The notes under the pieces were generated by a model. That model did no database searches. It was not told where the DNA came from and saw only the letters and a program-made list of their open reading frames with translations. From contig JAUCBJ010005626.1 of NCBI GenBank assembly GCA_032718475.1, forward strand, positions 27,387-91,386: a stretch of DNA of 64,000 bases, given 5' to 3'. This document shows positions 15,111 through 60,370 of the stretch, in pieces. The stretch is from Nemertoderma westbladi. Taxonomy: Eukaryota; Animalia; Xenacoelomorpha. Each line of letters starts with the position of its first letter. Positions within the stretch are counted from its first letter, which is position 1. Made by a program: the position numbers and the translations under genes.

Positions 15111-15793
15111 AAGTGATTTAAGTTAAGAAGTCCTAAGAAAAACAACTCTATAATAGCTAATGTAGCAAAGAATGAAGCAAATAAGTTGAGGAAGCCTCTA
15201 TGGTCAGTATATGAAAGTTAATTGAATGTGATTTTATAACATATGAAGATATGAATGTTTACTTGGAGACACTGATGGCCAATTCATTTTTTACTGCATT
15301 TGTTATCAAATTATTCATGTTCAACCTAAGTCCTGTTTAAATTTTTTTTATTTTATAGTTTTTACATTCTATTTATATTAAAACATAAAAACCATTCAAT
15401 TTGTAATGGTGCTGGTAAGTTTTAATTAATCAAGAATATACATACATTATTGATTAAATTTCTGCAATTGAATTGGATTTGAAATCCGTTTTTAGTGTTT
15501 GATTCAGCATAAAAATGTGTATATGAATCATTAAAAAATTTGTAACCAACCATAGGTCAATTTCTTGATCAAACCTCACATATAGAGAAATATAATTATT
15601 ATATACTAATAAGAATTTATTTAAATGCTATATAAATTAAGATGTTAATTGTAGATCTGAAATTTTTTGTTAATCCATACCATGTATATATACCCATCCA
15701 ATTTTCTTTATATGTTGGTTATCTACAACATGTATGTTAGAGGGTAGTAAAAAAATTAAATTTTTAAAAAGGAAACTTATACATTTTTTATAG

Positions 15794-16047
15794 GCAGTGA
15801 ACAGGCACCAACCACAAAATCCAGAGTAATTTTAGAATGGGAAGATGCATCTATGCTACCTCTAGTGGAAGTCGATTCTCAACTTGTTCGTCACTTAAAA
15901 CCACATCAAATAGATGGAGTGGAGTTTATGTGGGATTGCCTTATAGGTAGATCAAGTAATATTCAACCTGTCAGCCAATCTAGATATCAGAATCAAGGAA
16001 CTGGGTGTATACTCGCCCATTGTATGGGATTAGGAAAGACTCTGCAG
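15794..16047 (+). CDS. ATRX: ATRX-like exon 5, SNF2 Q-motif and Walker A
   Basis: PLVEVDSQLVRHLKPHQIDGVEFMWDC...GCILAHCMGLGKTLQ, followed by CAG|GTTAGT donor. Confidence 0.93.
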
Positions 16048-16156
16048 GTTAGTATATTATATAAATTATAGTGCATTTTAAACCTATAACACCTAATAAT
16101 ATTTAAATAGGAAAGAAGTCAAAATGATGCCGTTCGTGGCGTATCCATAATTATAA

Positions 16157-30186: not shown

Positions 30187-30846
30187 TTAAGTGACGTTGT
30201 TACTGGGAAGCATAGCACGATAAATAATAATGTCTCTTTCAAAATCCTGATGTACCTGCTTGACTTGAAAAAATGCCTCCAATGTTTGAATAAATCTGAG
30301 ATCCTTATCATACCTCAGTTTACAAGATAAATATACAACGGTTTCCAAAGAGGACATTGCTTTGAGAGTATCTAACAAATCATTAAATGTATCTTCAATA
30401 TAAATAATATCTGCGCCCAAGATAACATCATATTGAACGATGTTATTATCCAGTTTTTTTCCCCAAACTAATAAATCAGCTGAAAGACTTCCGTGTGTAA
30501 TAGGAATATCATTGTTTAACCGGATATTTTCTTGTATCAGCGGTATTGCTAAACTGCGATCAGTTGCCGTGACCCGTGCAGCAAACCGAGAGGCAACAAT
30601 GGCCACCATACCGGTACCAGATCCCAGCTCCAACACACTCTTTCCTCCTACAATCGAAGGGTGGTCAATGATATAGGCTGCTAGCACGATTGCGGCATCC
30701 CACACAACCCCGGCCACTCCCAAAGACTGCCACTCCTGTTTAATGCTCACCGATAAATCTTTTTTCATTTTAATATTTCGGATAGGTTTATGGAATAGGG
30801 ACATTTCGTCGAATTCTTTATAAACAATAACCGCTTGAGACTCCAT
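30187..30846 (-). CDS. METTL21A: Protein-lysine N-methyltransferase METTL21A (HSPA-KMT) homolog, intronless, 219 aa
   Basis: QEWQSLGVAGVVWDAAIVL, SAM-binding VLELGSGTG, ATDR, ILGADIIY and CKLRYDKD are collinear with METTL21A. The likely start is MESQ at 30846; the ORF extends upstream to 30957. Confidence 0.92.
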   Translation of the reverse strand: MESQAVIVYKEFDEMSLFHKPIRNIKMKKDLSVSIKQEWQSLGVAGVVWDAAIVLAAYIIDHPSIVGGKSVLELGSGTGMVAIVASRFAARVTATDRSLAIPLIQENIRLNNDIPITHGSLSADLLVWGKKLDNNIVQYDVILGADIIYIEDTFNDLLDTLKAMSSLETVVYLSCKLRYDKDLRFIQTLEAFFQVKQVHQDFERDIIIYRAMLPSNNVT

Positions 30847-31429
30847 TGTATCGTGGCAACTACCAGTAGTAGTAACGGTACCGGTACAAAAAATATTTAC
30901 AGCATTGGAAAACGATATCATAAACAAAATATCTGTCAAATATATATGGCAATCCATTAAGTAGGCCTACCGTAGTAGAAACTAGAAGGAAAGTAGGTAC
31001 ACGCGTACACCGACCCACGGCCGACTACTATTCTTTCTGTAATCCTAGGCCTACTACTGTACTACTACAGTACAGCAGAACTAATCTGCTAATCTCTGAA
31101 TCTGCTAAAAGTATAACATGGTGCACATAACAGTAGGCCTATAATAGCAGGACAGGGTAGAGATAGGCCTACAATCTCCGCAATATGTCTGCTCTGCACT
31201 GATGCATGCAGGCATCTGTATGTAGAGGCTAGTATAATAGCAAGATAGGGCGCCATTCATGCCTAAAGTCAATGAGTTTCTCTGTGGGAGTTCTCAGAGA
31301 TTTTCTGGCCGCGTTAGCATTCACCTTTGAACAGCGCCGCATAGTGAAATAGTACATTTACAGAGTTGCGATTTACATTAATTGAAACGCCAAATTCATA
31401 CAACGATTTACACAATCTGTTTCAGACAA

Positions 31430-35535: not shown

Positions 35536-37068
35536 TTCCCTGCCTTCCCCTTGGTTACCCTTCCTCCCCTGGGTTTCCCTTCCTTCCCCTTGGTTACCCT
35601 TGCTCCCCAGGGTTTCCCTTCCTTCCCCTGGGTTACCCTTCCTCCACTGGGTTTCCCTTCCTTCCCCTTGGTTACCCTCCCTCCCCTGGGTTTCCCTTCC
35701 TCCCCTGGGTTTCCCTTCCTCCCCTGGGTTACCCTTCCTCCCCTGGGTTTACCTTCCTTCCCCTGGGTTTCCTTTCCTCCCCTGGGTTTCCCATCCTCCC
35801 CTGGGTTTACCTTCCTTCCCCTTGGTTACCCTTCCTCTCCTGGGTTTACCTTCCTTCCCCTGGGTTACCCTTCCTCCCCTGGGTTTCCTTTCCTCCCCTG
35901 GGTTTCCTTTCCTCCCCTGGGTTTCCCTTCATCCCCTGGGTTTCCCTTCCTCCCCTGGGTTTCCCTTCCTCCCCTGGGTTTCCCTTCCTCCCCTGGGTTT
36001 CCCTTCCTCCCCTGGGTTTCCTTTCCTCCCCTGGGTTACCCTTCCTCCCCTGGGTTTCCCTTCCTCCCCTGGGATTCCCTTCCTCCCCTGGGTTTCCCTT
36101 CCTTCCCCTTGGTTACCCTCCCTCCCCTGGGTTTCCCTTCCTCCCCTGGGTTTCCCTTCCTTCCCCTTGGTTACCCTCCCTCCCCTGGGTTTCCCTTCCT
36201 CCCCTGGGTTTCCCTTCCTCCCCTGGGTTACCCTTCCTCCCCTGGGTTTACCTTCCTTCCCCTGGGTTTCCTTTCCTCCCCTGGGTTTCCCATCCTCCCC
36301 TGGGTTTACCTTCCTTCCCCTTGGTTACCCTTCCTCTCCTGGGTTTACCTTCCTTCCCCTGGGTTACCCTTCCTCCCCTGGGTTTCCTTTCCTCCCCTGG
36401 GTTTCCTTTCCTCCCCTGGGTTTCCCTTCATCCCCTGGGTTTCCCTTCCTCCCCTGGGTTTCCCTTCCTCCCCTGGGTTTCCCTTCCTCCCCTGGGTTTC
36501 CCTTCCTCCCCTGGGTTTCCTTTCCTCCCCTGGGTTACCCTTCCTCCCCTGGGTTTCCCTTCCTCCCCTGGGATTCCCTTCCTCCCCTGGGTTTCCCTTC
36601 CTTCCCCTTGGTTACCCTTCCTCCCCTGGGTTTCCCTTCCTTCCCCTGGGTTACCTTTCCTCCCCTGGGTTTCCCTTCCTACCCCTGGGTTTCCCTTCCT
36701 CCCCTGGGTTTCCCTTCCTCCCCTGGGTTTCCCTTCCTCCCCCTGGGTTACCCTTCCTCCCCAGGGTTTCCCTTCCTCCCCTGGGTTTCCCTTCTTTCCC
36801 CTTGGTTACCCATCCTCCCCTGGGTTTCCCTTCCTTCCCCTGGGTTACCCTTCCTCCCCTGGGTTTCCCCTTCCTACCCCTGGGTTTCCCTTCCGCCCCT
36901 GGGTTTCCCTTCCTCCCCTGGGTTTCCCTTCCTTCCCCTGGGTTACCCTTCCTCCCCTGGGTTTCCCTTCCTTCCCCTTGGTTTCCCTTCCTCCCCTGGG
37001 TTTCCCTTCCTTCCCCTTGGTTACCCTTCCTCCCCTGGGTTTCCCTTCCTTCCCCTGGGTTACCCTTC
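35536..37068. repeat. 19/20-bp C-rich minisatellite (TTCCTCCCCTGGGTTTCCC), about 79 units
   Basis: Seen directly. Diagnostic variants recur at 499-bp spacing (35793/36292 and 36074/36573). Confidence 0.97.
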
Positions 37069-41021: not shown

Positions 41022-41116
41022 CTGTATTATAATAATAAAAGATCAATGATCAGTTCATTATATCGTAATAGAGCCACAATGATTAAGAAGAATATTGAAA
41101 TAAATTTTACATTTAA

Positions 41117-43346
41117 ACTTACAAATATTGCATTTGCACTAACAAATATTGCATTTACACATACAAATATTGCATTTGCACTAACAAATATTGCATTTGC
41201 ACTTACAAATATTGCATTTCACTTACAAATATTGCATTTGCACTTACAAATATTGCATTTACACTTACTAATATTGGACTTGTACTTACAAATATTGCAT
41301 CTACACTTACTACTAATATTGGACTTGTACTTACAAATATTGCATTTGCACTTACAAATATTGCATTTGCACTTACAAATATTGCATTTACACTTACTAA
41401 TATTGGACTTGTACTTAAAAATATTGCATTTGCACTTACAAATATTGCATTTGCACTTACAAATATTGCATTTACACTTACTACTAATATTGGACTTGTA
41501 CTTACAAATATTGCATTTCACTTACAAATATTGCATTTGCACTTACAAATATTGCATTTACACTTACTAATATTGGACTTGTACTTAAAAATATTGCATT
41601 TGCACTTACAAATATTGCATTTGCACTTACAAATATTGCATTTGCACTTACAAATATTGCATCTACACTTACTACTAATATTGGACTTGTACTTACAAAT
41701 ATTGCATTTGCACTTACAAATATTTCATTTACACTTACAAATATTGGACTTGTACTTACAAATATTGCATTTGCACTTACAAATATTTCATTTACACTTA
41801 CTAATATTGGACTTGTACTTAAAAATATTGCATTTTCACTTACAAATATTGTATTTGCACTTACAAATATTGCATTTACACTTACTACTAATATTGGACT
41901 TGTACTTACTAATATTGAATTTGCACTTACAAATATTGCATCTACACTTACTACTAATATTGGACTTGTACTTACAAATATTTCATTTACACTTACTAAT
42001 ATTGGACTTGTACTTACAAATATTGCATTTCACTTACAAATATTGCATTTGCACTTACAAATATTGCATTTACACTTACTAATATTGGACTTGTACTTAC
42101 AAATATTGCATTTACACTTACAAATATTGGACTTGTACTTACAAATATTGCATTTACACTTACTAATATTGGACTTGTACTTACAAATATTGTATTTGCA
42201 CTTACAAATATTGCATTTGCACTTACAAATATTGCATTTACACTTACTAATATTGGACTAGTACTTAAAAATATTGCATTTGCACTTACAAATATTGCAT
42301 TTGCACTTACAAATATTGCATCTACACTTACTACTAATATTGGACTTTTACTTGCAAATATTGCATTTCACTTACAAATATTGCATTTGCACTTACAAAT
42401 ATTTCATTTACACTTACTAATATTGGACTTGTACTTAAAAATATTGCATTTGCACTTACAAATATTGCATTTGCACTTACAAATATTGCATTTATAACTT
42501 ACAAATATTGCATTTACACATACAAATATTGAATTTCACTTACAAAATTTGCATTTGCACTTACAATTATTTCATTTACACTTACTAATATTGGAATTGT
42601 ACTTACAAATATTGAATTTGCACTTACAAATATTGCATTTGCACTTACTAATATTGCATTTCACTTACAAATATTGCATTTTACTTACAAATATATACAA
42701 ATATTGCATTTACACATACAAATATTCCATTTACGCTTACAAATATTGCATTTGCACTTACAAATATTGCATTTACACATACAAATATTCCATTTACGCT
42801 TACATATATGGCATTTCACTTACAAATATTGCATTTGCACTTACTAATATTGGACTTGTACTTACAAATATTGCATTTGCACTTACAAATATTTCATTTA
42901 CACTTACTAATATTGGACTTGTACTTACCAATATTGTATTTATAACTTACAAATATTGCATTTACACTTACAAATATTGCATTTCACTTACAAATATTGC
43001 ATTTGCACTTACAAATATTGCATTTATAACTTACAAATATTGCATTTCACTTACAAATATTGCATTTGCACTACAAATATTGCATTTACACACACCATTT
43101 CACTTACAAATATTGAATTTCACTTACAAATATTGCATTTACACATAAAATATTGAATTTCACTTACAAATATTGCATTTACACATACAAATATTGAATT
43201 TCACTTACAATATTTCATTTACACATACAAATATTGAATTTCACTTACAAATATTTCATTTACACATACAAATATTGAATTTCACTTACAAATATTTCAT
43301 TTACACATACAAATATTGAATTTACACTTACAAATATTAAACTTAC
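41117..43346. repeat. ~21-bp minisatellite (CACTTACAAATATTGCATTTG), about 105 units
   Basis: Seen directly, with 19-24-bp variants. Fills ShKT-B intron 5. Confidence 0.97.
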
Positions 43347-43490: not shown

Positions 43491-46029
43491 TACAGTACTA
43501 CAGTACTACTAGGATCGGCATGCTGCATTGTACTACAGTACTACTAGGATCGGCATGCTGCATTGGACTACAGTACTACTAGGATCGGCATGCTGCATTG
43601 TACGACAGTACTACTAGGATCGGCAGTCTGCATTGTACTACATTACTACTAGGATCGGCATACTGCATTGTACTACAGTACTACTAGGATCTGCATGCTG
43701 CATTGTACTACAGTACTACTAGGATCGGCATGCTACATTGTACTACAATACTACTAGGATCGGCATGCTACATTGTACTACAGTACTACTGGGATCGGCA
43801 TGCTGCATTGTACTACAGTACTACTAGGATCGGCATGCTGCATTGTACTACAGTACTACTAGGATCGGCATGCTGCATTGTACTAAAGTACTACTAGGAT
43901 CGACATGCTGCATTGTACGACAGTACTACTAGGATTGGCATGCTGCATTGTACGACAGTACTACTAGGATCGGCATGCTGCATTGTACGACAGTACTACT
44001 AGGATCGGCATGCTGCATTGTACGACAGTACTACTAGGATCATCATGCTGCATTGTACTACAGTACTACTAGGATCGGCATGCTGCATTGTACGACAGTA
44101 CTACTAGGATCGGCATGCTGCATTGTACTACAGTACTATTAGGATCGGCATGCTGCATTGTACGACAGTACTACTAGGATCGGCATGTTGCATTGAACTA
44201 CAGTACTACTAGGATCGGCATGCTGCATTGTACTACAGTACTACTAGGATCGGCAGTCTGCATTGTACTACAGTACTACTAGGATCGGCATGCTGCATTG
44301 TACTACAGTACTACTAGGATCGGCATGCTGCATTGTACGACAGTACTACTAGGATCGGCATGCTGCATTGTACGACAGTACTACTGGGATCGGCATGTTG
44401 CATTGAACTACAGTACTACTAGGATCGGCATGCTGCATTGTACTACAGTACTACTAGGATCGGCAGTCTGCATTGTACTACAGTACTACTAGGATCGGCA
44501 TGCTGCATTGTACTACAGTACTACTAGGATCGGCATGCTGCATTGTACGACGGTACTACTGGGATCGGCATGCTGCATTGTACTACAGTACTACTAGGAT
44601 CGGCAGTCTGCATTGTACTACAGTACTACTAGGATCGGCATGCTGCATTGTACTACAGTACTACTAGAGTCGGCATTCTGCATTGTACTACAGTACTACT
44701 AGGATCGGCATGCTGCATTGTACGACAGTACTACTAGGATCGGCAGTCTGCATTGTACTACAGTACTACTAGGATCGGCATGCTGCATTGTACTACAGTA
44801 CTACTAGGATCGGCATGCTGCATTGTACTACAGTACTACTAGGATCGGCATGCTGCATTGTACGACAGTACTACTAGGATCGGTATGCTGCATTGTACGA
44901 CAGTACTACTAGGATCAGCATGCTGCATTGTACTACAGTACTACTAGGATCGGCATGCTGCATTGTACGACAGTACTACTAGGATCGGCATGCTGCATTG
45001 TACTACAGTACTATTAGGATCGGCATGCTGCATTGTACGACAGTACTACTAGGATCGGCATGTTGCATTGAACTACAGTACTACTAGGATCGGCATGCTG
45101 CATTGTACTACAGTACTACTAGGATCGGCAGTCTGCATTGTACTACAGTACTACTAGGATCGGCATGCTGCATTGTACTACAGTACTACTAGGATCGGCA
45201 TGCTGCATTGTACGACAGTACTACTGGGATCGGCATGCTGCATTGTACTACAGTACTACTAGGATCGGCAGTCTGCATTGTACTACAGTACTACTAGGAT
45301 CGGCATGCTGCATTGTACTACAGTACTACTAGAGTCGGCATTCTGCATTGTACTACAGTAATACTAGTATCGGCATGCTGCATTGTACGACAGTTCTACT
45401 AGGATCCGCAGTCTGCATTGTACTACAGTACTACTAGGATCGGCATGCTGCATTGTACTACAGTACTACTAGGATCGGCATGCTGCATTGAACTACAATA
45501 CTACTAGGATCGGCATGCTGCATTGTACTACAGTACTACTAGGATCGGCGGTCTGCATTGTACTACAGTTCTACTAGGATCGGCATGCTGCATTGTACTA
45601 CAGTACTACTAGGATCGGCATGCTGCATTGTACGACAGTACTACTGGGATCGGCATGCTGCATTGTACTACAGTACTACTAGGATCGGCAGTCTGCATTG
45701 TACTACAGTACTACTAGGATCGGCATGCTGCATTGTACTACAGTACTACTAGAGTCGGCATTCTGCATTGTACTACAGTACTACTAGGATCGGCATGCTG
45801 CATTGTACGACAGTACTACTAGGATCGGCAGTCTGCATTGTACTACAGTACTACTAGGATCGGCATGCTGCATTGTACTACAGTACTACTAGGATCGGCA
45901 TGCTGCATTGTACTACAGTACTACTAGGATCGGCATGCTGCATTGTACGACAGTACTGCTAGGATCGGCAGTCTGCATTGTACTACAGTACTACTAGGAT
46001 CGGCATGCTGCATTGTACTACATTACTAA
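43491..46029. repeat. 35-bp minisatellite (CTACAGTACTACTAGGATCGGCATGCTGCATTGTA), about 72 units
   Basis: Seen directly. Homogeneous, with recurring variant blocks. Confidence 0.98.
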
Positions 46030-47207: not shown

Positions 47208-47889
47208 GATTCCGACTCAATGGGTACATCGAGTCAAAGAGTACAACAGGTCAAAGAGTACAAAAATTGAAAAAAAGGTTACACCCGGACATAGTGAACA
47301 ACAACAGCCATGTCAAAGTGCACGTCAAAGGTACAACAGGTCAAAATGAACAATTTTAGCGGAATTTCTGACATTATTGCCATATAGGCCCGAAGGGCTG
47401 TTAATAACCAACTAACCCTAACCAAAATAATAAACGAACTAAACTACACTACACTAACTAAACTCGTTTTCTTTATACCCTTTGGTGACAGTTTTAATTA
47501 GGGTTGAGGCCGGTTTCATACAGTATACAAATCCATGTTGTTAACTTCGACCTGTTGTGCCCTTTTTTCCATTTTTGTACTCTTTGACCTGTTGTACCCT
47601 TTTTTCAATTTTTGTACTCTTTGACCTGTTGTACCCTTTTTTCCATTTTTGTACTCTTTGACCTGTTGTACCCTTTTTTCCATTTTTGTACTCTTTGACC
47701 TGTTGTACCCTTTTTTCCATTTTTGTACTCTTTGACCTGTTGTACCCTTTTTTCCATTTTTGTACTCTTTGACCTGTTGTACCCTTTTTTCCATTTTTGT
47801 ACTCTTTGACCTGTTGTACCCTTTTTTCCATTTTTGTACTCTTTGACCTGTTGTACTCTTTGAATCGATGTAAACATTGACTCGGAATC
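47208..47889. mobile_element. TIR element with an internal 37-bp tandem array (47550-47860, about 8 units)
   Basis: Termini GATTCCGACTCAATG and CATTGACTCGGAATC. The subterminal GTACAACAGGTCAAAGAGTAC motif is amplified on the right side. Confidence 0.75.
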
Positions 47890-49271
47890 GAAGCGAAGTC
47901 CTTAGTTCCAATGGATATTAGTTCTAACCCCAAACGTCATATGTTCTAATAAGGAACGTCTCTTTACGTTCGTTCAATTAACGTTGAGACTTTAGTTCTA
48001 AATTTAAATAACAGATTGTTTTAACAATATACAGTACCAGTCGAGCTCCTTGACAACTGTTTTAGAGAAATAAAACTTTCTCCTCAAGTCATCAACATTG
48101 GTGGAGGCCATGTTGAGAAGTGCGCAGGATTGGGACTGGTTTTTTTTAACCATCAGATACCGGTACATTTAATGTTAATAGATGTTATAATGTTATATAG
48201 AATAGAATATTATATGTTTATGCTTTGATTAGAAAAATAAATAAATTGGTTTAACACAAATTACTTTCCACATTTAAGTAAATAGTTAGTACACACTTTT
48301 CCATTTTATAGTATTACATTACCAATATAAAATGTTTAGCTTTAAAATGGGACATAAATTGTTAATTTATGTTATCCGTTCAAAAGTTATTAACATTTCA
48401 AACATGGATAAATTTTGTGGCTATGTATGATACGTAGAAAATCTTTCCCCATTAACTAACATAGGCAAATTTGATGTTGCGTGAGAGAATATTACATATT
48501 TATACACTAGTTAATTTTTAGTCAATAAACAATCATACATCTTTATATTAAACACTCGAATAAATTTTAAAAAACTAAAAGCTTGGTGAGAATGGGACAC
48601 GGCGAATCGACCTGTGCTATTTTTATATAGCGTGAGCTTAATTTTACCCCCTTAAATGATTAATAACCCAAATAAGAACCCCAATATTCGATACATTTCT
48701 TTGTATAGTTGACCAAGTAGAGCACGTAAACTTCCAAGCCAATATCAATGTGCACAAACATACATACAGACAAACGTCGTTATTAAGGTACACACCCCCT
48801 CCCCCTCACATTTATGTACAAATCTTAATGAGAATACATGGAATTTGAAACAGTTTCACCTGGGTGAGCCAGAATTTTTATTTTTGCTTTCAATCTTAAG
48901 CTACAAGTGTTTGAAAAAGGTGTCTCCAGTGATATTTCACTAGTTACAGCTCAGTTATTCTTCAAACTTATAGTGGGTTGGTACCAATGGAAAGCTGGCC
49001 GTTCTAGAATTCCAAAAATGTCAAAATATTTGAATTTGGTTGATAAATAACTGAGATTGGGCATTCGAAAGTTGCATGTATTTGCTTCCTATGCAGGCCA
49101 TTTATTATATTTAATATATACACCTTTTCTGAAACATTTTGTTTATCCCATCCCATACGTGGCTGGGCAGGTACCTGAATAACGACAATATATTCCAGGA
49201 CATGGTGTATCCACCATAGCAACCGTAAGTTAGCTTACCACCTATAGCAAATCAATCGGAAAGATGCAGGA

Positions 49272-49343
49272 GCCTCCGTGGTTTAGAGGTTAGCATACCT
49301 GGACGTTTATCGGGAGACACAGGTTCGATCCCCGCTGGTGGCG
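49272..49343 (+). mobile_element. tRNA-derived SINE head / pseudo-tRNA enclosed by inverted repeats
   Basis: A box TGGTTTAGAGG, B box GGTTCGATCCC, imperfect cloverleaf stems. Flanked by CTATAGCAAAT (49242) and ATTTGCTATAG (49362-49372). Confidence 0.75.
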
Positions 49344-49649: not shown

Positions 49650-49937
49650 CTACAGGAATCAACATAGACAATGCAGTATGTTTAGCTAACATTACTGTAT
49701 ACCGGCAAAAAGTACTGGTTAAAAAGTTCCTAGTAAAAATCCGACCCAATGAATTTAATAACTTTATTTTGGACAAAAGATAAGAAGATTTACAATAAAC
49801 AATTAAGTAAAAAATAGCGCAATATGTGTATTGGAATATCGTCGAATTAAATATTAACATTAAGCGATGTGACAATATAGTAATTTTATTTTATTTATAT
49901 TTAGCAAATTTTTTTGTCTGACAATGGTTGTACTAAC

Positions 49938-50066
49938 CTCCATCTCCACACATGTTGCAACTGGTCTGACAATGGTTATACATGTAAGCAGGGTTTTCAA
50001 AACACTGACCGGCCGCCATCCAGCCACTGCAAGATACCGGATCGTCATCGGGACTTTCCACACAAA
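49938..50066 (-). CDS. ShKT gene B exon 2 (ShKT 1)
   Basis: CVESPDDDPVSCSGWMAAGQCFENPAYMYNHCQTSCNMC; tttcag acceptor and G|GTTAGT donor. Confidence 0.9.
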
Positions 50067-50242
50067 CTGAAACAAAACAGTCGAAATCTATTAGCAGTTT
50101 TCTTGACGCTTTGGTGTAAAATCTCACAAAAACTATGGAACTAATTACTAGAACACAATGTGGCCAGAGGATCAAGTTTTATAATTATATTCATTTATTT
50201 TTTGCCTTATGTGCACATTAGTATATATGAATATTGTATACA

Positions 50243-50874: not shown

Positions 50875-53165
50875 ATAATACTACTACTAGGGTCGGCATG
50901 CTGCATTGCAGCTGCATTTTTAAGAATGCTGTGCCGGCTTGCCAACAATATTGCACCGCCACAACTCCCTATCACCCATGACATTTGCTAGATCATCCGC
51001 ATCTTTAAGGCCAGTGTCCTTTAAGATGCGTCTCAAGAAAGTCATGGGATGTCCTCCATGCTTATTCACTACATGAGGCTGCCAAAGTACAAGATTATGC
51101 ACTGGCTGGTCCTCACGGCGAAAGCAATGTCCTGCAAAGCGGAGGCGATTTTGTTCTAGTGTCAAGCTTGGGGGAACCAATGAGACACCTCCAATGTTAT
51201 ATAGTGTCTGGTTGGAGATGTGTTCATTGTACTTGACACAATAAACCCGGCGTAGCATTCTTGTGAATGTGCCATCCAGAGATTTGGTGTCCTCAGCAGT
51301 TAGAGCCCAGCATGGACTCCCGCAGAGGAGTACTGGAACTACTGCTGCTCTAAATAATCGGACCTTAAGTTTCCGATTAATTCTCGGTGACTTCCAAATC
51401 CTGGAAAGCCTATTCAAGGCTGCCCATGCCTTTCCCTTACGTATTCGAAGGTCCTCACCTGACTTCCGGATCCATGATCCCAGGTAACAGAAGTCGTCCA
51501 CATGCTCAAGCATACCATCCTTTGAGCTTATGCTCATCCGATCAGAGACTTGCTGAGGACTTTCAAAGTTAACTGTCAAAATTTTGGTCTTTCTGGAGTT
51601 AATAAAAAGACCAACACTAGAAGCAGCATGTTCTAATGAGCTGAGGAGCCGTTGGGCCCCCTCTAATGATTCTGAGAGTACTCCTAAGTCATCAGCAAAG
51701 TCTAGATCAGTTAGGTACTTGGCAGGATTTCCTCGACTTCTGGAGCCAGTAGGTGGAGTTATCATCACCCCATCATCATTATGATGATCTAAGGACATGC
51801 GTAGAACATAGTCAACCACAATAATGAACAAGAATGGTGCAAGTGTGTCTCCTTGGAGGACGCCCCATAACACTTCAAATGGTTCTGTATCACCGTCAAC
51901 AGTAGACACAAATGTTGTCGAACCATCGTATACTGATCTGATTGCTGCAATAATTTCACCAGGAATCCCATATAATGAAAGTATGCTGAACATACGTGAG
52001 CGAGAGACTGAATCAAAGGCCTTGAAGAAGTCAACAAAGATAACAGCCAGATGCCTGTCTTTCTTTTTTGATAATTCTTCAATTATCCTCCTAAGTGCCA
52101 AAATGGGCTCCATGGTCCCACGACCTTTACGGAACCCATTCTGATTTCCACGGAGCAGTCTCTCAATGGGATCCCTGATGCGATTTAATAGAATCCTATT
52201 GTATAGCTTTGCAGCAATCGAAATCAATGAGATTCCCCGAAAAGAACCATAGAGTGTTAGGTTGCCCTTCTTGGGAACTGGTTTGTTTTCATTTCTTGTG
52301 GGACTCTTGTTGTTCGGTACATGTCTACTATGATGGGATAGATGAGCTTTAAACACTCAGGTATTTTAAAGACCTCAGGGGGAACACCATCTACTCCACT
52401 GGCACGATTGGTCTTAATGCTCTTTGCAGCAGCCTTCACTTCTGCAAAGGAGATATTGCCAATGGGAATATCTGGGAGTACAGACTCAGACACTTTTACT
52501 TCTATAAAGTTATCAGGCAATACCCTGTCATTATTGAGGAGCTTTTCAAAGTGGGCTTTCCAACCATTGAGGCGATCGGCTGGTGATTCAGCCTTAACCT
52601 TGGTGGTTGGTTGGCTTTTCCGCCCAGTAAGCAACTTGATCGATTTCCATGCTTGGGATGATTGCCTGCTGTCGTCAGCATCATTGATGGCATCAACCTG
52701 TTGGTTTATTAGCTCCTGTAGATTAACAGAGTACTGCCTGTTCAGGGACCTAGATGCAGCCTTAAATGCATTCTTGGCCGCTGTAGTCTGTTTGAGTCGG
52801 GACTCTTTCTGCGCCTTATGAAGGTCATTTCGGCACTTCTGAATTTTGTTGTCAGTCCAGGGGGCCCTTTTCCTGTTTCGAGGGTATACAGGAACTGTTT
52901 CTGCAGCTGCTAACTTAACTGCTTCTGTAAAGGCAGTATAGCCCTCACAGTTATCTGCCGCCTCAGAGGCAAGAACTTCATACCTGTTGCTCAGCTGTAG
53001 TGTGAAGCTGGATCTCACACTTGGCTGTTGCAACAGAGAGGACCAGTGATGCCGCGGCAAGGCAGATTTCGTTGTTCTGCTAGCACGCAGACTAAGTCTT
53101 ACCTTGGCCACAATAAGGCGGTGATCACTGGAGAAGGGTCGAAGTGTAAATGCATTACAGTCTTG
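50875..53165 (-). mobile_element. RTE-clade LINE, 5'-truncated, one frameshift near 52300
   Basis: Endonuclease end SDHRLIVAKVRLSLR. RT motifs PKKGNL..FRGISL, QNGFRKGR, FVDFFKAFDSV, GVLQGDTLAPFLF, DLDFADDL and FCYLGS. C-terminal RLRFAGHCFR and a (TAG)n tail. Confidence 0.95.
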
Positions 53166-53299
53166 TGAGGTGTGTATATAATAAGGTGTATAGTTTGTCA
53201 TTAAATAAGTAATAATAAATTAATATTGTCCATATTTTGATGTCAAAATCTTTTTTCGCAATGAACTAAATAGTATAGGGGCTATGTCGGTGGCATTAA

Positions 53300-54189: not shown

Positions 54190-55590
54190 TTGTAGCGAAT
54201 CTCAGTAAGTGAACAACCGCTTTTACTCTTCTTGGTCGCGCTTTGTGAGATCTGCCTTGATACTTATATGCTTCAAATTAGGAAGTAATTTCAGCTTGTC
54301 TGAATTTATTCTGACCATGTTTCTGTCCGACCAGAACGAAAGGTAACATTAAGACATCGGGGGTGTTTATCTGTGCCAAGATCTATAGTGCACACGCGAC
54401 GACATCGCTCGAAATGGATATCTCTACATCCGATAGCAATGAGCACTTTGCGTAGAACTTCTTTATCAGGGTCGTCGGAAGCTAGCTCTGGAATTCCACA
54501 AAAGATCAAATTCTTAAGACGTTCATCTTTATCATGTAAGGGAACTCCTCCAGTAAAGGTCACTAGGGGATATCTTTCGTCAGGTGTGTGAGATAATCAG
54601 GTGATTCCCTAGTATAATGCCTTACCTCCCTTCCCACTTGACTTCCGGTTTCGCTCAGGGAACCTGCTGTCGGACAGCCAGTGGCCTGTCGAGGATATGC
54701 GGTAGACCCCGGAATCAGTGTAACAAATAAGAGGGTTCAACAATATAATACTAATAAACATTAGAGAAGAGGTGACATTTAATATAAGAATGCACCTAAG
54801 AATGAAGTTCTGCCCCGAAATCATAACATTATATACACCGCAATATAATCAATAATCGTTACTAAACATCTGATTAATCGCACTATTAACACCTTCACCT
54901 GTTAACGCCTAAAATGTTATCTATCTCTCAGCCGTGTGTAGTTCCTGGTAACCCCCCCCCCCCCCCCCCCCCCCCAATCTATTAATAGTCCCTTTCATTG
55001 TTATAAACAACCGGTTACATTGTCCTTACTGTATTATAAATCCTACGTACTTTATTGCAGCATTATTGTTCGGTTTGTCGATAGGCAATTTCTAAGGCTG
55101 TGTTTGGCCTCACTATGCGTTCACACCTCATCTTCACGACTCTATCCACTGTTATTACCCTTCTAATTATATCGTTCATTGATATGGGATTACTCACTAA
55201 CATATCATTGCGAGCATTTATATTTTGCTGATCCAAAATGTCTCGTTTTCAACGGTTGTGCATCTCGTTATTGGACCTTTTTTTTTCTAACGCAACGATT
55301 ATTTTCTCCTGATCGTTGTATTTTTGGCTCTGGCTATCTAGTTTGTCGTTGATGGGTGTCAGTTTCGCGTCGAGCATTTTATGTGGTTTTATCCAGAAAT
55401 CATCATTTGTAGCTACTGCATCAGCGACGGATACATCGGGAGCTGACGACGACTGGTTTGCTGTGGATTGTCCACTTGCTGTTTCCTCGTTTCTACAGGC
55501 TTCACATATCCCTGAAAGCTGTAAATTTCCCTAACTTTGGTAGAGTTATTTTCGAATCTCCGCAAAGTTTGCAGTCAGGCATTTCTACAT
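54190..55590 (-). mobile_element. Interrupted LINE ORF1 remnants
   Basis: ERLKNLIFCGIPE...PRCLNVTFRS...ISIKADLT (ORF1 RRM/CTD-like) at 54190-54560, and a Cys-pair N-terminus MPDCKLCG...CEAC followed by coiled-coil-like sequence near 55300-55590. Confidence 0.55.
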
Positions 55591-55934
55591 TATTTTTATT
55601 TAGGGTTCAAAGAAGTGATTACTATTGCTGTTGTGATTGCTATCAATATTGTTGTAATAAGTTCGCACCTATGCAGGGCAGCCTAATAACGAAAAACGAA
55701 ACATTTGGCAATATTATAGTATAGTATATAGTATACTATAGTATATAGTATTATACATTTATTATAGGAAGGGATCTAGGGGTCTTAACCTCGAATGATA
55801 AGTTTATTTTACCAATCTTTTATTGGCGCAATTGTAGGACTAATCCCATCACATCCGTACTTTTTAACCGGGTAGTGTACAAATTTAGGAATCGCGTAAT
55901 TTTTCTTGAAATTAATATCTCATATCTCTCCAAA

Positions 55935-55975
55935 CCACGTACGCGTTTCGACCTTACTGGGTCTCATCAGCGTGG
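55935..55975 (-). ncRNA. Minimal type-I hammerhead ribozyme
   Basis: Minus strand reads CCACG CUGAUGA GACC CAGUAA GGUC GAAA CGCG UA^CGUGG. It has an intact catalytic core, stem I CCACG/CGUGG, stem II GACC/GGUC, palindromic stem III ACGCGU and a GUA cleavage triplet. Confidence 0.9.
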
Positions 55976-56040
55976 TGTCGGAATCGAATCTGGGACCTCG
56001 AGGTGGAAGCCGAGACTACAACCACTAGGCCACAGGTTCT
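55976..56040 (-). promoter_or_regulatory. tRNA-derived Pol III internal promoter (A and B boxes) directly upstream of the hammerhead
   Basis: A box TGGCCTAGTGG (56032-56022), anticodon-like arm CTCGG-CTTCCAC-CTCGAG, B-box-like GATTCGATTCC (55990-55980). Confidence 0.75.
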
Positions 56041-56386
56041 TGAGATATGGAGTATTAATTTCAAAGCCAGCTGCCATTTTATTAGCCCCTGATTTTTATT
56101 ATTGATAGTAACAATGTGTTGGCAAGCTGTATTTTTCGTGGTATTTGTTATTATACATTTATTATAGGAAGGGATCTAGGGGTCTTAACCTCGAATGATA
56201 AGTTTATTTTACCAATAATAACTCATCTTTTATTGGCGCAATTGTAGGACTAATCCCATCACATGCGTACTTTTTAACCGGGTATTGTACAAATTTTAAA
56301 TAACATATAAATACAAATATTATACAAATATTATAATAACAAATACCTCGAAAAATACAGCTTGCCAACACATTGTTACTATCAAT

Positions 56387-57731
56387 AGTATAGTATAGTA
56401 TAGTATAGTATAGTATAGTATAGTATAGTATAGTATAGTATAGTATAGTATAGTATAGTATAGTATAGTATAGTATAGTATAGTATAGTATAGTATAGTA
56501 TAGTATAGTATAGTATAGTATAGTATAGTATAGTATAGTATAGTATAGTATAGTATAGTATAGTATAGTATAGTATAGTATAGTATAGTATAGTATAGTA
56601 TAGTATAGTATAGTATAGTATAGTATAGTATAGTATAGTATAGTATAGTATAGTATAGTATAGTATAGTATAGTATAGTATAGTATAGTATAGTATAGTA
56701 TAGTATAGTATAGTATAGTATAGTATAGTATAGTATAGTATAGTATAGTATAGTATAGTATAGTATAGTATAGTATAGTATAGTATAGTATAGTATAGTA
56801 TAGTATAGTATAGTATAGTATAGAGTATATAGTATATAGTATATAGTATATAGTATAGAGTATAGAGTATAGAGTATAGAGTATAGAGTATATAGTATAG
56901 AGTATATAGTATAGAGTATATAGTATAGAGTATATAGTATAGAGTATATAGTATAGAGTATATAGTATAGAGTATATAGTATATAGTATATAGTATAGAG
57001 TATATAGTATAGAGTATATAGTATAGAGTATATAGTATAGAGTATATAGTATAGAGTATATAGTATATAGTATATAGTATATAGTATATAGTATATAGTA
57101 TATAGTATATAGTATATAGTATATAGTATATAGTATATAGTATATAGTATATAGTATATAGTATATAGTATATAGTATATAGTATATAGTATATAGTATA
57201 TAGTATATAGTATATAGTATATAGTATATAGTATATAGTATATAGTATATAGTATATAGTATATAGTATATAGTATATAGTATATAGTATATAGTATATA
57301 GTATATAGTATATAGTATATAGTATATAGTATATAGTATATAGTATATAGTATATAGTATATAGTATATAGTATATAGTATATAGTATATAGTATATAGT
57401 ATATAGTATATAGTATATAGTATATAGTATATAGTATATAGTATATAGTATATAGTATATAGTATATAGTATATAGTATATAGTATATAGTATATAGTAT
57501 ATAGTATATAGTATATAGTATATAGTATATAGTATATAGTATATAGTATATAGTATATAGTATATAGTATATAGTATATAGTATATAGTATATAGTATAT
57601 AGTATATAGTATATAGTATATAGTATATAGTATATAGTATATAGTATATAGTATATAGTATATAGTATATAGTATATAGTATATAGTATATAGTATATAG
57701 TATATAGTATATAGTATATAGTATATAGTAT
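56387..57731. repeat. Compound microsatellite: (TAGTA)n, then mixed TATAGAG/TATATAG, then (TATATAG)n
   Basis: Seen directly. Confidence 0.98.
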
Positions 57732-58197
57732 CTTGTATGTTGTAAAAAAAAATTCTGTTTGTAGGTATTGAATCTTCTCCTACAATTTTCAACGAAATAA
57801 AGCGAAATTTTGCAGAAAGCATGTCTAATAAATGCTCCCTATGGGGTGTCGACAGAATTTTAATTGAGTGAATTCTACGATTATGATCGGTCATTCTAGA
57901 ATTAATTTCACTGTTGCTAGGCAACCAACAGGTCCCTCGCAACCAAAACCTTGCATACACAACTAGGTCCGATAATGAACCTAATCTATCATCAACGTTT
58001 CATCCAATTCCATCAACATAGTGCAAGAAGTTGTCTGTACAAACAAACACACACACAAACAAACACGCGTGAGAAATAAGGACATCCAGTTCTGCTGGAT
58101 CCGTCAAATTATTAGGAACCGAGAGGGACTTAGAGCTCGTGAAAATTGATAAAGTCTGATAGTATACAATATACAGCAATTATCGTTATCAACTTAC

Positions 58198-58291: not shown

Positions 58292-59236
58292 TGTGAGCCT
58301 TTTATATTTACAGTTTCAACATAGAATTTTCTAAACGTTTAACAATTATTTTTTCAACGTTGTACGATATTCATACGGGTTTACAATATTCGGTAATATA
58401 TCAGCTATTGTAATCTGTAATGTATTAATACCATTAACGGTGCAGCTGTGACTAATCTGTGTATCTGTATGAATGCGTAATTTACGGTCATTAAATAAAT
58501 TACTGATTTTGTACTAGGGCGATACAAACTAAATAGTGTTATTATTCAATGTCCCGTTGGGTTGTGAAGGATTTGACTGCTTATCAAATGTATTCCTCTC
58601 TCATAACACATTGCTGTCGTAACATGGCGTTTTCCTTTTGTGCCATTTCATTATTGTCTTGCGGTAATAGTAATGTATTATTCCACCATGTTTGACATGA
58701 GCATGTCAATAACAGGCAGGTTTTTTTTTTTGGTGCCACTGATTCACCGCTGACCGACGTATCAATTTGATATCAGTGTTTTTACCTCTTCGTCCTCGAG
58801 TTCTTGAAAATGCAACCAAATAAATATGGAAGTTTATTTACTTAGTTAATAGGGAGTGTACACTGTACATGCGGATGACTGTCGAATGCTGCCTTACATA
58901 AATATATTCCGTTTATGGAATATCATAAAAATCATAATGTAAAATTAAATTACTATCCCTAAACGGCTTGTAAAGCTTTGAATATTGATGAGTAAAACAT
59001 CATTTACCCATAATATGGCTTTACCTCTGATTGTTAAGTTTATTACCACTGGGGAAATAAATTCTGACATTTAGGAATAACCAACCATTAAGTAGCAATT
59101 CTACCAAAATGATTCGTATGAGACTATAATTGGTAGTACAATATAAGATACCAGCAAAATCAGCGATTGTGTCAGAGAATATAGAAATAAGATAGCAGAT
59201 ATATTGATTATCATTTTGCTTTTTTTTAATAAAACT

Positions 59237-60370
59237 ATGGCTAATAAAAATATGTATCCCAACATTGCTGATGAGGAGTTTGATGAGTTGAATAATTACT
59301 TTGAATACCTAAAGACAGAGTTGTTCACTCCAGGTACTACCACTGGTAACCTAACGGTGATCTTTGTTTGCTTCTACGCCGTCATCGGCATTATCGGTCA
59401 CGTGCTCACCATCGTCGTTGTTAAGCTCGAGCCAAGTTTCCAGTCCATCTTCTACAAGTTGCTCGCTCTTGGCGCGGTCTTCGAAATTCTCGCTCTCATT
59501 GGCAAGGTCCTTCATATCCTCGCCAACCAGCTCTACTTTTGCCCGGGAGAGGTGCGGAACTTCGTACAAAACGATGTTTGGATTACCATGTGGCAGGATT
59601 GTCCCTCGGTGGTGGCTGCCGGTGTCCAGGGCTACTGGAAACTATTCGTCAGTCCACTACTCGCTCTCTCTGGTTGGGCAGTCGTCTTCATATCGATCGA
59701 CCGCTTTTGCGCGGTGTTTCTTGCTATCCGTTACTCTCTCGTCCACGAGAACCAGAAGAAGATTCTGCTCGGTGCTTTCATCTTTCAGGTTCTTGTGTTT
59801 ATCATTCCCGTCTGGCCGGAGTTTCTAGTTAATACTATCGAAGACCAAGGACCAAAGACCACTTTTATTGTCACGAATAATTCGACATTATACGAAGATT
59901 ACATCTCAAATGTCTCTGGTTTCTACCGGCCCATCGAGAATTGGCTTCAAGTAGGCCTTCTTTTTATCTTCAGCGCTGCCGTTCTATTTAAAGTGAAGGT
60001 GATGGCCAAACTACGCGGAAGTACAGGGGAGTCAGACAGAGATAAGCGCGACCGGAGTCTCATCAACCTTATGCTCATCACCATGGCAACAAAGGGGTCG
60101 CAGTTGGCCTTCAACGGTATCCAATGGATGTACATAAATCTTTATCGCGATAGTTTGGAGCAGTCCGTTCCGCCCAACGCCCATATTGTGGGTATCGCGG
60201 AGGTGCGCGCCTACTACCACGCATTCAATGTTAGCAATATCCTTATCGTTGTCAACTACTACGTCTGCGTCGCCTACGCTGTTAACTTTTACCTCATGCT
60301 AACGATTCGATCATTCAGCGATGCGTTTAAACGGCAAATTGTGGCTCCAATATCTAAAAAATTCAAATAG
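59237..60370 (+). CDS. Intronless rhodopsin-type (class A) 7TM GPCR, divergent; FMRFamide-receptor/Srw-like group (tentative)
   Basis: 377 aa from ATG 59237 with about seven hydrophobic segments: TM1 GIIGH, TM3 ISIDRFCAV, TM7 AVNFYLM, then an F..AFK helix 8. AATAAA at about 60384. Confidence 0.85.
   Translation: MANKNMYPNIADEEFDELNNYFEYLKTELFTPGTTTGNLTVIFVCFYAVIGIIGHVLTIVVVKLEPSFQSIFYKLLALGAVFEILALIGKVLHILANQLYFCPGEVRNFVQNDVWITMWQDCPSVVAAGVQGYWKLFVSPLLALSGWAVVFISIDRFCAVFLAIRYSLVHENQKKILLGAFIFQVLVFIIPVWPEFLVNTIEDQGPKTTFIVTNNSTLYEDYISNVSGFYRPIENWLQVGLLFIFSAAVLFKVKVMAKLRGSTGESDRDKRDRSLINLMLITMATKGSQLAFNGIQWMYINLYRDSLEQSVPPNAHIVGIAEVRAYYHAFNVSNILIVVNYYVCVAYAVNFYLMLTIRSFSDAFKRQIVAPISKKFK

What the first reader, a model, noticed from the sequence alone, without database searches (positions are those of the whole stretch)
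55751..56386. tRNA-promoter plus hammerhead ribozyme cassette with Penelope/retrozyme architecture
Seen: on the minus strand, a tRNA-like A box (TGGCCTAGTGG) and B box (GATTCGATTCC) run straight into a perfect minimal type-I hammerhead (CCACG CUGAUGA GACC-CAGUAA-GGUC GAAA CGCG UA^CGUGG). The CCA at the tRNA-like 3' end doubles as stem I. The module lies in a 400-bp monomer present as about 1.35 tandem copies plus a 55-bp inverted fragment, and the whole block splits a TAGTA microsatellite. Known: minimal hammerheads with a palindromic stem III mark Penelope-like pLTRs and non-LTR retrozymes and cleave as dimers; schistosome Sm-alpha combines a Pol III promoter with a hammerhead. Inference: this is a self-transcribing, self-cleaving, non-coding retroelement (a SINE-retrozyme hybrid) mobilised by a Penelope RT, possibly through ~400-nt circular RNA.
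Basis: partly seen in the sequence, partly recalled or inferred. Interest (0 to 1): 0.85.

Follow-up and report, generated by a model that had tools for sequence, protein, structure and literature searches.

The report
tRNA-headed self-cutting repeat, Penelope-style insertion
This is one slightly decayed copy of a very abundant, protein-free 411-base repeat of an animal that joins a tRNA-like promoter motif to a predicted self-cutting hammerhead RNA, a design already known from blood flukes, and its insertion ends suggest that a Penelope-type enzyme likely copied it from a multi-unit or circular RNA.

Summary
On the minus strand an A box (56032-56022), a B box (55990-55980) and a type I hammerhead (55976-55934) sit in 1.35 tandem units plus an inverted 55-nt piece, beside a TATAG array. 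Three corrections: the hammerhead is canonical type I, not 'minimal'; the family unit is 411 nt; and this copy's B box has lost the invariant G that over 99.9% of family depth keeps. Public runs show a very abundant family, joined head to tail, with one closed 411-nt cycle. Family 3' ends pile up at two sites about 55 nt apart, and they match this copy's two ends, like the Penelope 'tail'. A diverged family keeps both boxes, the ribozyme and the end region while the sequence between the boxes drifts. An unrelated contig has a tRNA end fused to a similar hammerhead in exact register. Best reading: a tRNA-headed non-LTR retrozyme of the Schistosoma Sm-alpha design, likely Pol III-transcribed and Penelope-mobilised. 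Transcription, cleavage, circles and the partner enzyme are untested. This copy is probably a dead end. The scan already reported what appears to be this family elsewhere in this genome. New member of a known kind.

The parts
56332..56386 (+). Inverted, 5'-truncated piece: a copy of unit 56101-56155 (the tail region) in opposite orientation; the outer boundary blends into the microsatellite (56386-56390)
   Evidence: 54 of 55 identical; shares with the direct copy a minority letter at 56143/56344 that only about 1-3% of family depth has
56297..56331 (.). 35-nt AT-rich filler between the inverted piece and the direct copies, made of short repeats of the neighbouring sequence
   Evidence: sequence; TRF period 11 at 56283-56335; lower family depth
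56151..56296 (-). 5'-truncated upstream partial unit (3' part of the body)
   Evidence: direct repeat of 55751-55886
56097..56150 (-). AC-rich 54-nt 'tail' between the two family 3' end sites; predicted reverse-transcription start region
   Evidence: loose ends pile at 56097/56098 and 56151-56160 in two studies; region partly kept in a diverged family
56068..56129 (-). Predicted 8-9 bp stem joining the tail (56129-56120) to the leader (56076-56068)
   Evidence: pair probabilities 0.91-0.98; duplex -14.6 kcal/mol; prediction only
56042..56065 (-). 5' arm of a long helix predicted to enclose the tRNA part and the ribozyme
   Evidence: inverted match 20 of 23 with 55906-55928; pair probabilities mostly above 0.9; -24.0 kcal/mol
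55972..56039 (-). tRNA-derived head (cloverleaf decayed), predicted internal Pol III promoter
   Evidence: A and B boxes at tRNA spacing; ARAGORN tRNA-?(Gly|Trp) at 70% threshold only; no Rfam tRNA match
56022..56032 (-). A box
   Evidence: three changes in the diverged family fall at degenerate positions 2, 4 and 9
55980..55990 (-). B box, with two private changes in this copy (55989 at the invariant G, and 55983)
55934..55976 (-). Canonical type I hammerhead: stem I 6 bp (its 5' strand includes ACCA), stem II 4 bp with 6-nt loop, palindromic ACGCGT stem III, predicted cut between 55940 and 55939; a 4-bp extension of stem I reaches 55981/55930
55905..55928 (-). 3' arm of the long enclosing helix
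55751..55904 (-). Body of the downstream unit, ending at the family's first 3' end site (equivalent to 56151); carries a private 10-nt deletion near 55814
56385..57738 (.). TATAG / TATAGTA microsatellite array at the element's 5' side (likely target)
55711..55751 (.). 40-bp remnant of similar microsatellite at the element's 3' side

Best explanation
This is a 1.35-unit insertion, with an inverted 5' piece, of an abundant head-to-tail 411-nt non-coding repeat that joins tRNA-type A and B boxes to a type I hammerhead motif, and it is likely a Pol III-transcribed retrozyme copied into the genome by a Penelope-type reverse transcriptase. Shown: the motifs, their linkage in the family, the abundance, head-to-tail joining, two preferred 3' ends, and that this copy runs unbroken across both the predicted cut site and the predicted Pol III start. 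That last point means its template was a multi-unit or circular RNA, not a cut linear monomer and not a transcript begun at this copy's own tRNA head. Inferred: (1) in tandem arrays Pol III starts at the tRNA head and reads on through later units, which hold no run of four T; (2) the hammerheads cut after GUA, probably helped by pairing of two palindromic stems III, and release 411-nt monomers with the promoter at their 3' end; (3) stem I and the long helix would hold the monomer ends together for ligation into a circle by a host ligase; (4) a Penelope RT/endonuclease nicks AT-rich DNA and starts reverse transcription inside the RNA at either end of the AC-rich tail, about 200 or 250 nt downstream of the cut site, which gives partial tandems and inverted 5' pieces. 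This copy has one ribozyme and a damaged B box, so it is probably a dead-end daughter.
For: Motifs beyond chance. 3801 contigs laid in run X1 and 1560 in X2, summed depth up to 7.1e5 on the element against 26.4 on the unique flank in X1 (the tool says this is no copy number). One 441-nt contig in run X4 covers 55757-56186 with identical first and last 30 nt in the window, i.e. a closed 411-nt cycle that holds tRNA head and ribozyme together. Head-to-tail joints and junction letters in X2 (tables 5 and 5c). Loose ends: X1 56097 (9 contigs), 56098 (9), 56151 (9); X2 56098 (10), 56153 (7), 56160 (5), with low flank agreement of 0.44-0.51; 10 at one place against a mean under 1 has corrected P below 1e-4. 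Penelope RT starts at two internal sites downstream of the hammerhead, and these define the tail (PMC11167929). Partial tandem, inverted 5' copy, tail and microsatellite bias are PLE marks (PMC8557442). Diverged family in X7: at most 1 change in the 43-nt ribozyme against 7 in the 31 nt between the boxes, Fisher P 0.008; canonical B box in 3 of 3 contigs; same order of tail region and ribozyme in one contig. L029: tRNA 3' half with ACCA in exact register, pairing with TGGT as stem I of a similar hammerhead. Unit folds better than shuffles (z -2.49; 0 of 60 shuffles as stable).
Against: No transcription, cleavage or circle was shown; the closed cycle in X4 fits tandem DNA as well as circular RNA, and that run's RNA label is a guess. 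Lack of T4 runs is weak: 22-23% of shuffles of the unit also lack them, as do 21 of 264 background strands. The tail is 54-55 nt, longer than the 30-40 bp in the papers. No PLE protein was found in 71 of the window's reading frames scanned against Pfam, and no genome is held, so no partner is identified. The tail region alone does not fold better than shuffles. Only 1 of 9 predicted Xenopus retrozyme dimers cut in vitro, and the anole PLE hammerhead was dispensable for insertion in vitro. Most loose-end rows were hidden (563 and 213). The X7 comparison rests on 3 contigs.
Confidence: 0.66

Rival explanations
1. The unit is the terminal repeat (pLTR) of an autonomous, protein-coding Penelope element that captured a tRNA promoter; short copies such as this one are its 5'-truncated insertions.
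For: All insertion marks are those of PLEs. Xenopus retrozymes are related to pLTRs. Earlier scan notes report tRNA-headed pLTRs of coding PLEs in other genomes (unchecked AI notes).
Against: The unit closes on itself as a 411-nt cycle. Listed loose ends have heterogeneous flanks, not one shared continuation. The ATG in the hammerhead core, which starts the ORF in the anole element, is closed after 15 codons here. The hammerhead is canonical, while metazoan PLEs were described with min-HHRs.
Confidence: 0.12
2. Same RNA element, but mobilised mainly by a LINE enzyme (SINE-like) and not by a Penelope enzyme.
For: LINE-type RTs are in the window (RVT_1 at 50920-52356 and 8641-9012). 5' inversions also occur in LINE insertions (recalled). 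Nematostella repeats had 15-bp target duplications.
Against: No poly(A) or LINE 3' tail at this copy's 3' end. Two internal end sites 55 nt apart and a partial tandem fit the PLE pattern. Self-BLAST found no match between the unit and the window's LINE.
Confidence: 0.1
3. It is mobilised as RNA, but the tRNA part or the ribozyme is a passenger: transcription comes from Pol II read-through, or cleavage is not needed.
For: Newt satellite transcripts appear to be Pol II products. PAc hammerhead mutants still insert in vitro. The T4 test is weak. The family is young, so conservation within it says little.
Against: Boxes and ribozyme are kept while the sequence between the boxes drifts in a diverged family, and a separate contig repeats the tRNA-hammerhead fusion.
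Confidence: 0.09
4. It is satellite DNA spread by DNA-level amplification, with chance or fossil motifs.
For: Tandem joining and high depth are also properties of satellites.
Against: Dispersed insertion ends at two fixed sites, an inverted 5' piece from the same template, motif conservation, and 0 of 300 shuffles with the joint motif.
Confidence: 0.03

Closest known systems
Schistosoma Sm-alpha / Sj-alpha SINE-like hammerhead repeats (Ferbeyre 1998 and Laha 2000, not read; known here through PMC6765202 passages, PMC2770079 passages and PMC4918200 section 10)
   Same: tRNA-derived promoter followed by a type I hammerhead; tandem repeats; promoter left at the 3' end of a cut monomer, so single copies cannot propagate; very high copy number.
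   Different: Host is not a known schistosome (nearest METTL21A relatives are brachiopod, mollusc and leech proteins at 37-46%). [quoted passage not shown] Penelope-type ends are seen here; I found none described for Sm-alpha in what I read. Sequence homology to Sm-alpha was not tested.
Metazoan non-LTR retrozymes (PMC7229834; bioRxiv 10.64898/2026.07.22.740005)
   Same: 150-450 bp tandem unit, under 50% GC, canonical type I hammerhead, no ORF, no LTR, self-paired fold, PLE proposed as partner.
   Different: Carries a tRNA-type promoter, which neither paper's main text discusses. This copy has one hammerhead, so it fails the 'active' definition of two consecutive units. Circles not shown.
Penelope-like elements, e.g. 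PAc of Anolis (PMC11167929) and the PLE structure summary (PMC8557442)
   Same: Partial tandem, inverted 5'-truncated copy, tail between two end sites, AC-rich start region downstream of a hammerhead, AT-rich or microsatellite target.
   Different: No ORF; tail 54-55 nt against 30-40; canonical and not minimal hammerhead; tRNA head.
tRNA-derived SINEs
   Same: Internal A and B boxes in a decayed tRNA; non-coding; very abundant.
   Different: Tandem unit with the promoter in the middle of the insertion, a ribozyme, no A-tail and no LINE-like 3' end seen.

Membership tests
Metazoan non-LTR retrozyme | Type I hammerhead with intact core | tested here: met
   no core variant at 3% or more in X2
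Metazoan non-LTR retrozyme | Tandem unit of 150-450 bp, low GC, non-coding | tested here: met
   411-nt cycle, joints, GC 39%, no ORF from the core ATG and no Pfam match for the one long frame
Metazoan non-LTR retrozyme | Two or more consecutive units with hammerheads at a locus | tested here: not met
   This copy has one hammerhead. The family is joined head to tail elsewhere, but no long array was read here.
Metazoan non-LTR retrozyme | Stable self-paired monomer | tested here: met
   z -2.49, 1 of 100 shuffles as stable; 0 of 60; large parts stay unpaired
Metazoan non-LTR retrozyme | Self-cleavage and circular RNA in vivo | not testable with these tools
   contigs only; the X4 cycle cannot separate circle from tandem DNA
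Sm-alpha-like SINE/hammerhead repeat | tRNA-derived A and B boxes directly upstream of the hammerhead | tested here: met
Sm-alpha-like SINE/hammerhead repeat | Pol III transcription | tested here: inconclusive
   boxes conserved in a diverged family; no T4 in the unit but P about 0.22; no RNA data
Sm-alpha-like SINE/hammerhead repeat | Sequence homology to Sm-alpha / Sj-alpha | not tested
   no Sm-alpha sequence was available from the tools
Penelope-like element (autonomous) | RT plus GIY-YIG ORF between pLTRs | tested here: not met
   none in this copy or among 71 frames scanned; genome not held
Penelope-like element (insertion pattern) | Partial tandem, inverted 5' copy, tail between two end sites, microsatellite target | tested here: met
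   tail longer than published
PLE min-HHR (Cervera 2014) | Helix II 7-8 bp, helix I 4-5 bp, extra base before stem II, no helix III | tested here: not met
   helix I 6 bp, helix II 4 bp, short palindromic helix III
Classical LINE-dependent tRNA SINE | Promoter at the 5' end, A-rich or LINE-like 3' tail, target duplication | tested here: not met
   promoter is internal to the insertion and no such tail is seen; a target duplication cannot be read inside the microsatellite

The most novel reading that the evidence does not exclude
A SINE-equivalent for Penelope elements: an RNA that supplies its own Pol III promoter, uses the tRNA's ACCA end as stem I of its ribozyme, becomes a 411-nt circle, and carries a separate conserved AC-rich module where a Penelope RT starts. 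Its two fixed insertion ends would be a direct genomic footprint of PLE mobilisation of a retrozyme, so far argued from co-occurrence and pLTR homology. The fusion to a mature tRNA end may have arisen in, or spread to, several invertebrate lineages.
Probability: 0.5. Interest if true: 0.6.

Novelty: new member of a known kind. Interest (0 to 1): 0.4.

Why it matters
Animal retrozymes lack a known promoter in most species, and their mobilising enzyme is inferred. This family offers both in a testable 411-nt unit: an internal Pol III promoter, and two mapped end sites that predict where a Penelope RT should start. It extends the Sm-alpha design beyond flukes. It is also a compact natural cassette for making circular RNA, if cleavage and ligation are confirmed. 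The design itself is known, so the gain is mechanistic testability, not a new class.

Tried and rejected
No genome is held, so copy number, array lengths, target duplications and the partner PLE could not be counted. No RNA holder was listed with certainty; this says nothing on expression. Runs X9 and X11 laid nothing, which is no proof of absence. Rfam found no tRNA match. Pattern scans: viral contigs gave 2 chance hits without stems, then 0, then 4 phage-type hammerheads with the same loop II but no tRNA, one confirmed as type III, so shared loop II letters do not prove common ancestry with L029; prokaryote genomes gave 0; metagenomes gave 30 hits, of which 29 lacked the stems and 1 (L029) was real. 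The T-run asymmetry (0 T4 against 7 A4 runs) was tested and is not significant. A stable stem-loop in the tail alone was not found. A link to the LINE at 50920-53219 was rejected: 2.5 kb away, no shared sequence. One X5 contig of 1831 nt carries a copy with broken core letters, so decayed derivatives exist. The Lunse 2017 paper on dimers was not held. Look-ups of earlier findings by sequence and near this place returned nothing. Paper searches for a description of this family or of a PLE-mobilised tRNA-headed retrozyme found only the schistosome precedent; Repbase and Dfam could not be searched, and paper supplements were not read.

Full report
Observation. The A box is at 56032-56022, the B box at 55990-55980, the hammerhead core CTGATGA at 55970-55964, stem II GACC/GGTC with a 6-nt loop, GAAA from 55949, the palindrome ACGCGT, and the triplet GUA with the predicted cut after 55940. 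It is the only hammerhead descriptor hit in the window. In 300 shuffles the descriptor gave 0.013 hits per window and never fell within 40 nt of an A+B pair. Rfam matches Hammerhead_HH9 at 28.1 bits, below its gathering score of 52. By the definitions in PMC4209133 (passages) this is the canonical metazoan type I form, not the min-HHR of PLEs. The tRNA part is weak as a structure: no Rfam match, no ARAGORN call at default or 80-95%, and tRNA-?(Gly|Trp) at 70%.

Host. No genome is held. The window has an intronless METTL21A-like frame whose best relatives are brachiopod, mollusc and leech proteins at 37-46% identity, with vertebrates close behind, plus LINE RT fragments and a GPCR-like frame. 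It is an animal, probably a lophotrochozoan (inference).

Family. Seven runs hold the stretch or part of it. Laid on 55500-56400, X1 gave 3801 contigs and X2 1560; summed depth in X1 reached 7.1e5 on the element against 26.4 on the unique flank. The tool warns that this is no copy number, but the family is plainly very abundant. Majority letters differ from this copy at a few places. At 55989 and 55983 over 99.9% of depth gives the canonical B box GGTTCGAATCC, so this copy has lost the invariant G. In X4 one 441-nt contig covers 55757-56186 with 11 inserted letters; the first and last 30 window letters of that span are identical. That is how a closed 411-nt cycle appears in a 31-mer graph (inference from the method). 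It holds the tRNA head and ribozyme together. It fits tandem DNA or circular RNA equally, and X4's RNA label is a guess. X2 contigs also join the unit's end to its start. No variant at 3% or more was listed in the hammerhead for X2; one X5 contig has a broken core.

Ends. Contigs leave the element for unrelated flanks at two sites: 56097/56098 (X1 9 and 9 contigs; X2 10; X5 1) and 56151-56160 (X1 9; X2 7 and 5), with flank agreement of 0.44-0.51 (563 and 213 further rows were hidden). Ten ends at one place against a mean of 0.5-0.9 has a corrected P below 1e-4; the pile of 7 is weaker (0.0005-0.04) and the pile of 5 is not significant alone. This copy uses both sites: the direct part ends at the equivalent of 56151, and the inverted piece at 56097-56101. 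The two pieces share a letter that only 1-3% of family depth has, so they came from one template. PMC8557442 (passages) lists partial tandems, an inverted 5'-truncated copy, a 30-40 bp tail at one end and microsatellite bias as PLE marks. PMC11167929 (parts 1-2 of 4) shows that a Penelope RT starts at two internal sites in an AC-rich region downstream of the hammerhead, and that these define the tail. The segment between our two sites is AC-rich and 54-55 nt long, longer than published, and does not fold well alone.

Template logic. The direct part runs 546 nt without a break across the predicted cut site and 257 nt beyond the predicted Pol III start. A cut linear monomer would have stopped the copy about 190-200 nt in, and a transcript begun at this tRNA head would have stopped it at about 290 nt. 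The template was therefore a multimer or a circle (inference from sequence). The two overlapping copies differ by one indel and two substitutions, similar to this copy's drift from the majority, so circle and multimer cannot be told apart.

Relatives. Run X7 holds a diverged family in 3 contigs. One matches 55917-55996 with 3 differences, two of them this copy's private B-box letters, and also matches 56132-56172 in tandem order at similar spacing. Two match 55967-56062 with 14-15 differences. Changes number at most 1 in the 43-nt ribozyme and 7 per contig in the 31 nt between the boxes (Fisher P 0.008). The three A-box changes fall at degenerate positions. A metagenome scan gave 30 hits, one real: L029 has a tRNA 3' half whose discriminator and CCA lie in exact register and run straight into a type I hammerhead (Rfam Hammerhead_1, 29.9 bits, E 4.6e-5). 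Both elements pair ACCA with TGGT in stem I. Eukaryotic nuclear tRNA genes do not encode CCA (established knowledge), so that fusion likely used a mature tRNA. Phage hammerheads share the same loop II, so common ancestry with L029 is open.

Structure. A helix of about 23 bp (56064-56042 with 55906-55928; -24.0 kcal/mol) is predicted to enclose the tRNA part and ribozyme. Its 5' arm lies upstream of the predicted start, so it can form only in read-through or circular RNA, where it would hold a monomer's ends together (inference). Closing stem III in a monomer costs about 5 kcal/mol, while two ACGCGU strands pair at -7.5; this favours dimer cleavage, though coral and mussel canonical hammerheads cut as single cloned units (PMC7229834 parts 2 and 4 and section 14). 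The unit has no T4 on the sense strand against 7 A4 runs, but 22-23% of shuffles also lack T4, so this is weak. The first T run downstream of this copy is at 55696.

Comparison. A Pol III promoter followed by a hammerhead in tandem repeats is described for Sm-alpha, including the point that single copies cannot propagate (PMC6765202 passages; PMC2770079 passages; PMC4918200 passages and section 10). Animal retrozymes and their proposed PLE partner are described in PMC7229834 and in bioRxiv 10.64898/2026.07.22.740005 (parts 1 and 3 of 5 and term search), where only 1 of 9 dimers cut in vitro. PMC10886601 (passages) added nothing. Searches for this family or for PLE-type ends on a tRNA-headed retrozyme found nothing further; supplements, Repbase and Dfam were not seen. 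Earlier notes of this scan describe 411-412-bp units of the same design elsewhere in this genome, and tRNA-headed pLTRs of coding PLEs in other genomes; these are unchecked, and I did not compare sequences. The pLTR rival was tested as far as possible: closed cycle, heterogeneous flanks, core ATG closed after 15 codons, and no PLE domain in 71 frames (9, 62). A rare autonomous master is not excluded.

Verdict. Real, and a new member of a known kind: it works like Sm-alpha and like a non-LTR retrozyme. This copy fails the two-hammerhead criterion and is probably inert. The added value is the two mapped end sites and three conserved modules, which make PLE mobilisation of a retrozyme directly testable. 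Interest 0.4.

Noticed in passing
window 49271-49343 (+): A second tRNA-like A/B box pair; ARAGORN calls tRNA-Asn(gtt) at a 95% threshold but not at default. Likely a SINE head or tRNA pseudogene; no hammerhead follows it.
   Followed up: partly
window about 55624-55716: Another repeat just beyond the element's 3' end, with summed depth up to 6000 in X1 against 26 on the flank. A 12-nt stretch at 55637 resembles the element's tail end. Identity unknown.
   Followed up: no
window 55000-55600 (-): Broken reading frame that looks by eye like a LINE ORF1 (coiled-coil-like stretch); single-copy depth over 55500-55623, no Pfam match.
   Followed up: partly
window 50920-53219 (-): LINE reverse transcriptase in two overlapping frames (RVT_1, E 6e-29); looks RTE-like by recall; a second decayed LINE lies at about 8100-9700.
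   Followed up: partly
window 30187-30966 (-): Intronless METTL21A-like lysine methyltransferase frame; could be a retrocopy or a single-exon gene.
   Followed up: partly
window 59147-60370 (+): Single-frame 407-aa GPCR-like protein with weak 7TM matches.
   Followed up: no
window 35536-37068, 41102-43338, 43495-46028, 47545-47861: Large minisatellite arrays with periods 19, 21, 35 and 37.
   Followed up: no
window 15760-16068 (+) and 49936-50178 (-): Exon-sized matches to SNF2-related (E 1.5e-6) and ShK-like (E 7.7e-5) domains.
   Followed up: no
L036 992-1044 and 1324-1376 (-): A phage contig with two type III hammerheads in a 97-nt repeat, each just upstream of a small gene; L033-L035 have similar cores.
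   Followed up: partly
L029 1-81 (+): tRNA 3' half with CCA in exact register fused to a type I hammerhead in an AT-rich, repeat-rich contig; the contig starts inside the tRNA, so its unit length and A box are unseen.
   Followed up: yes
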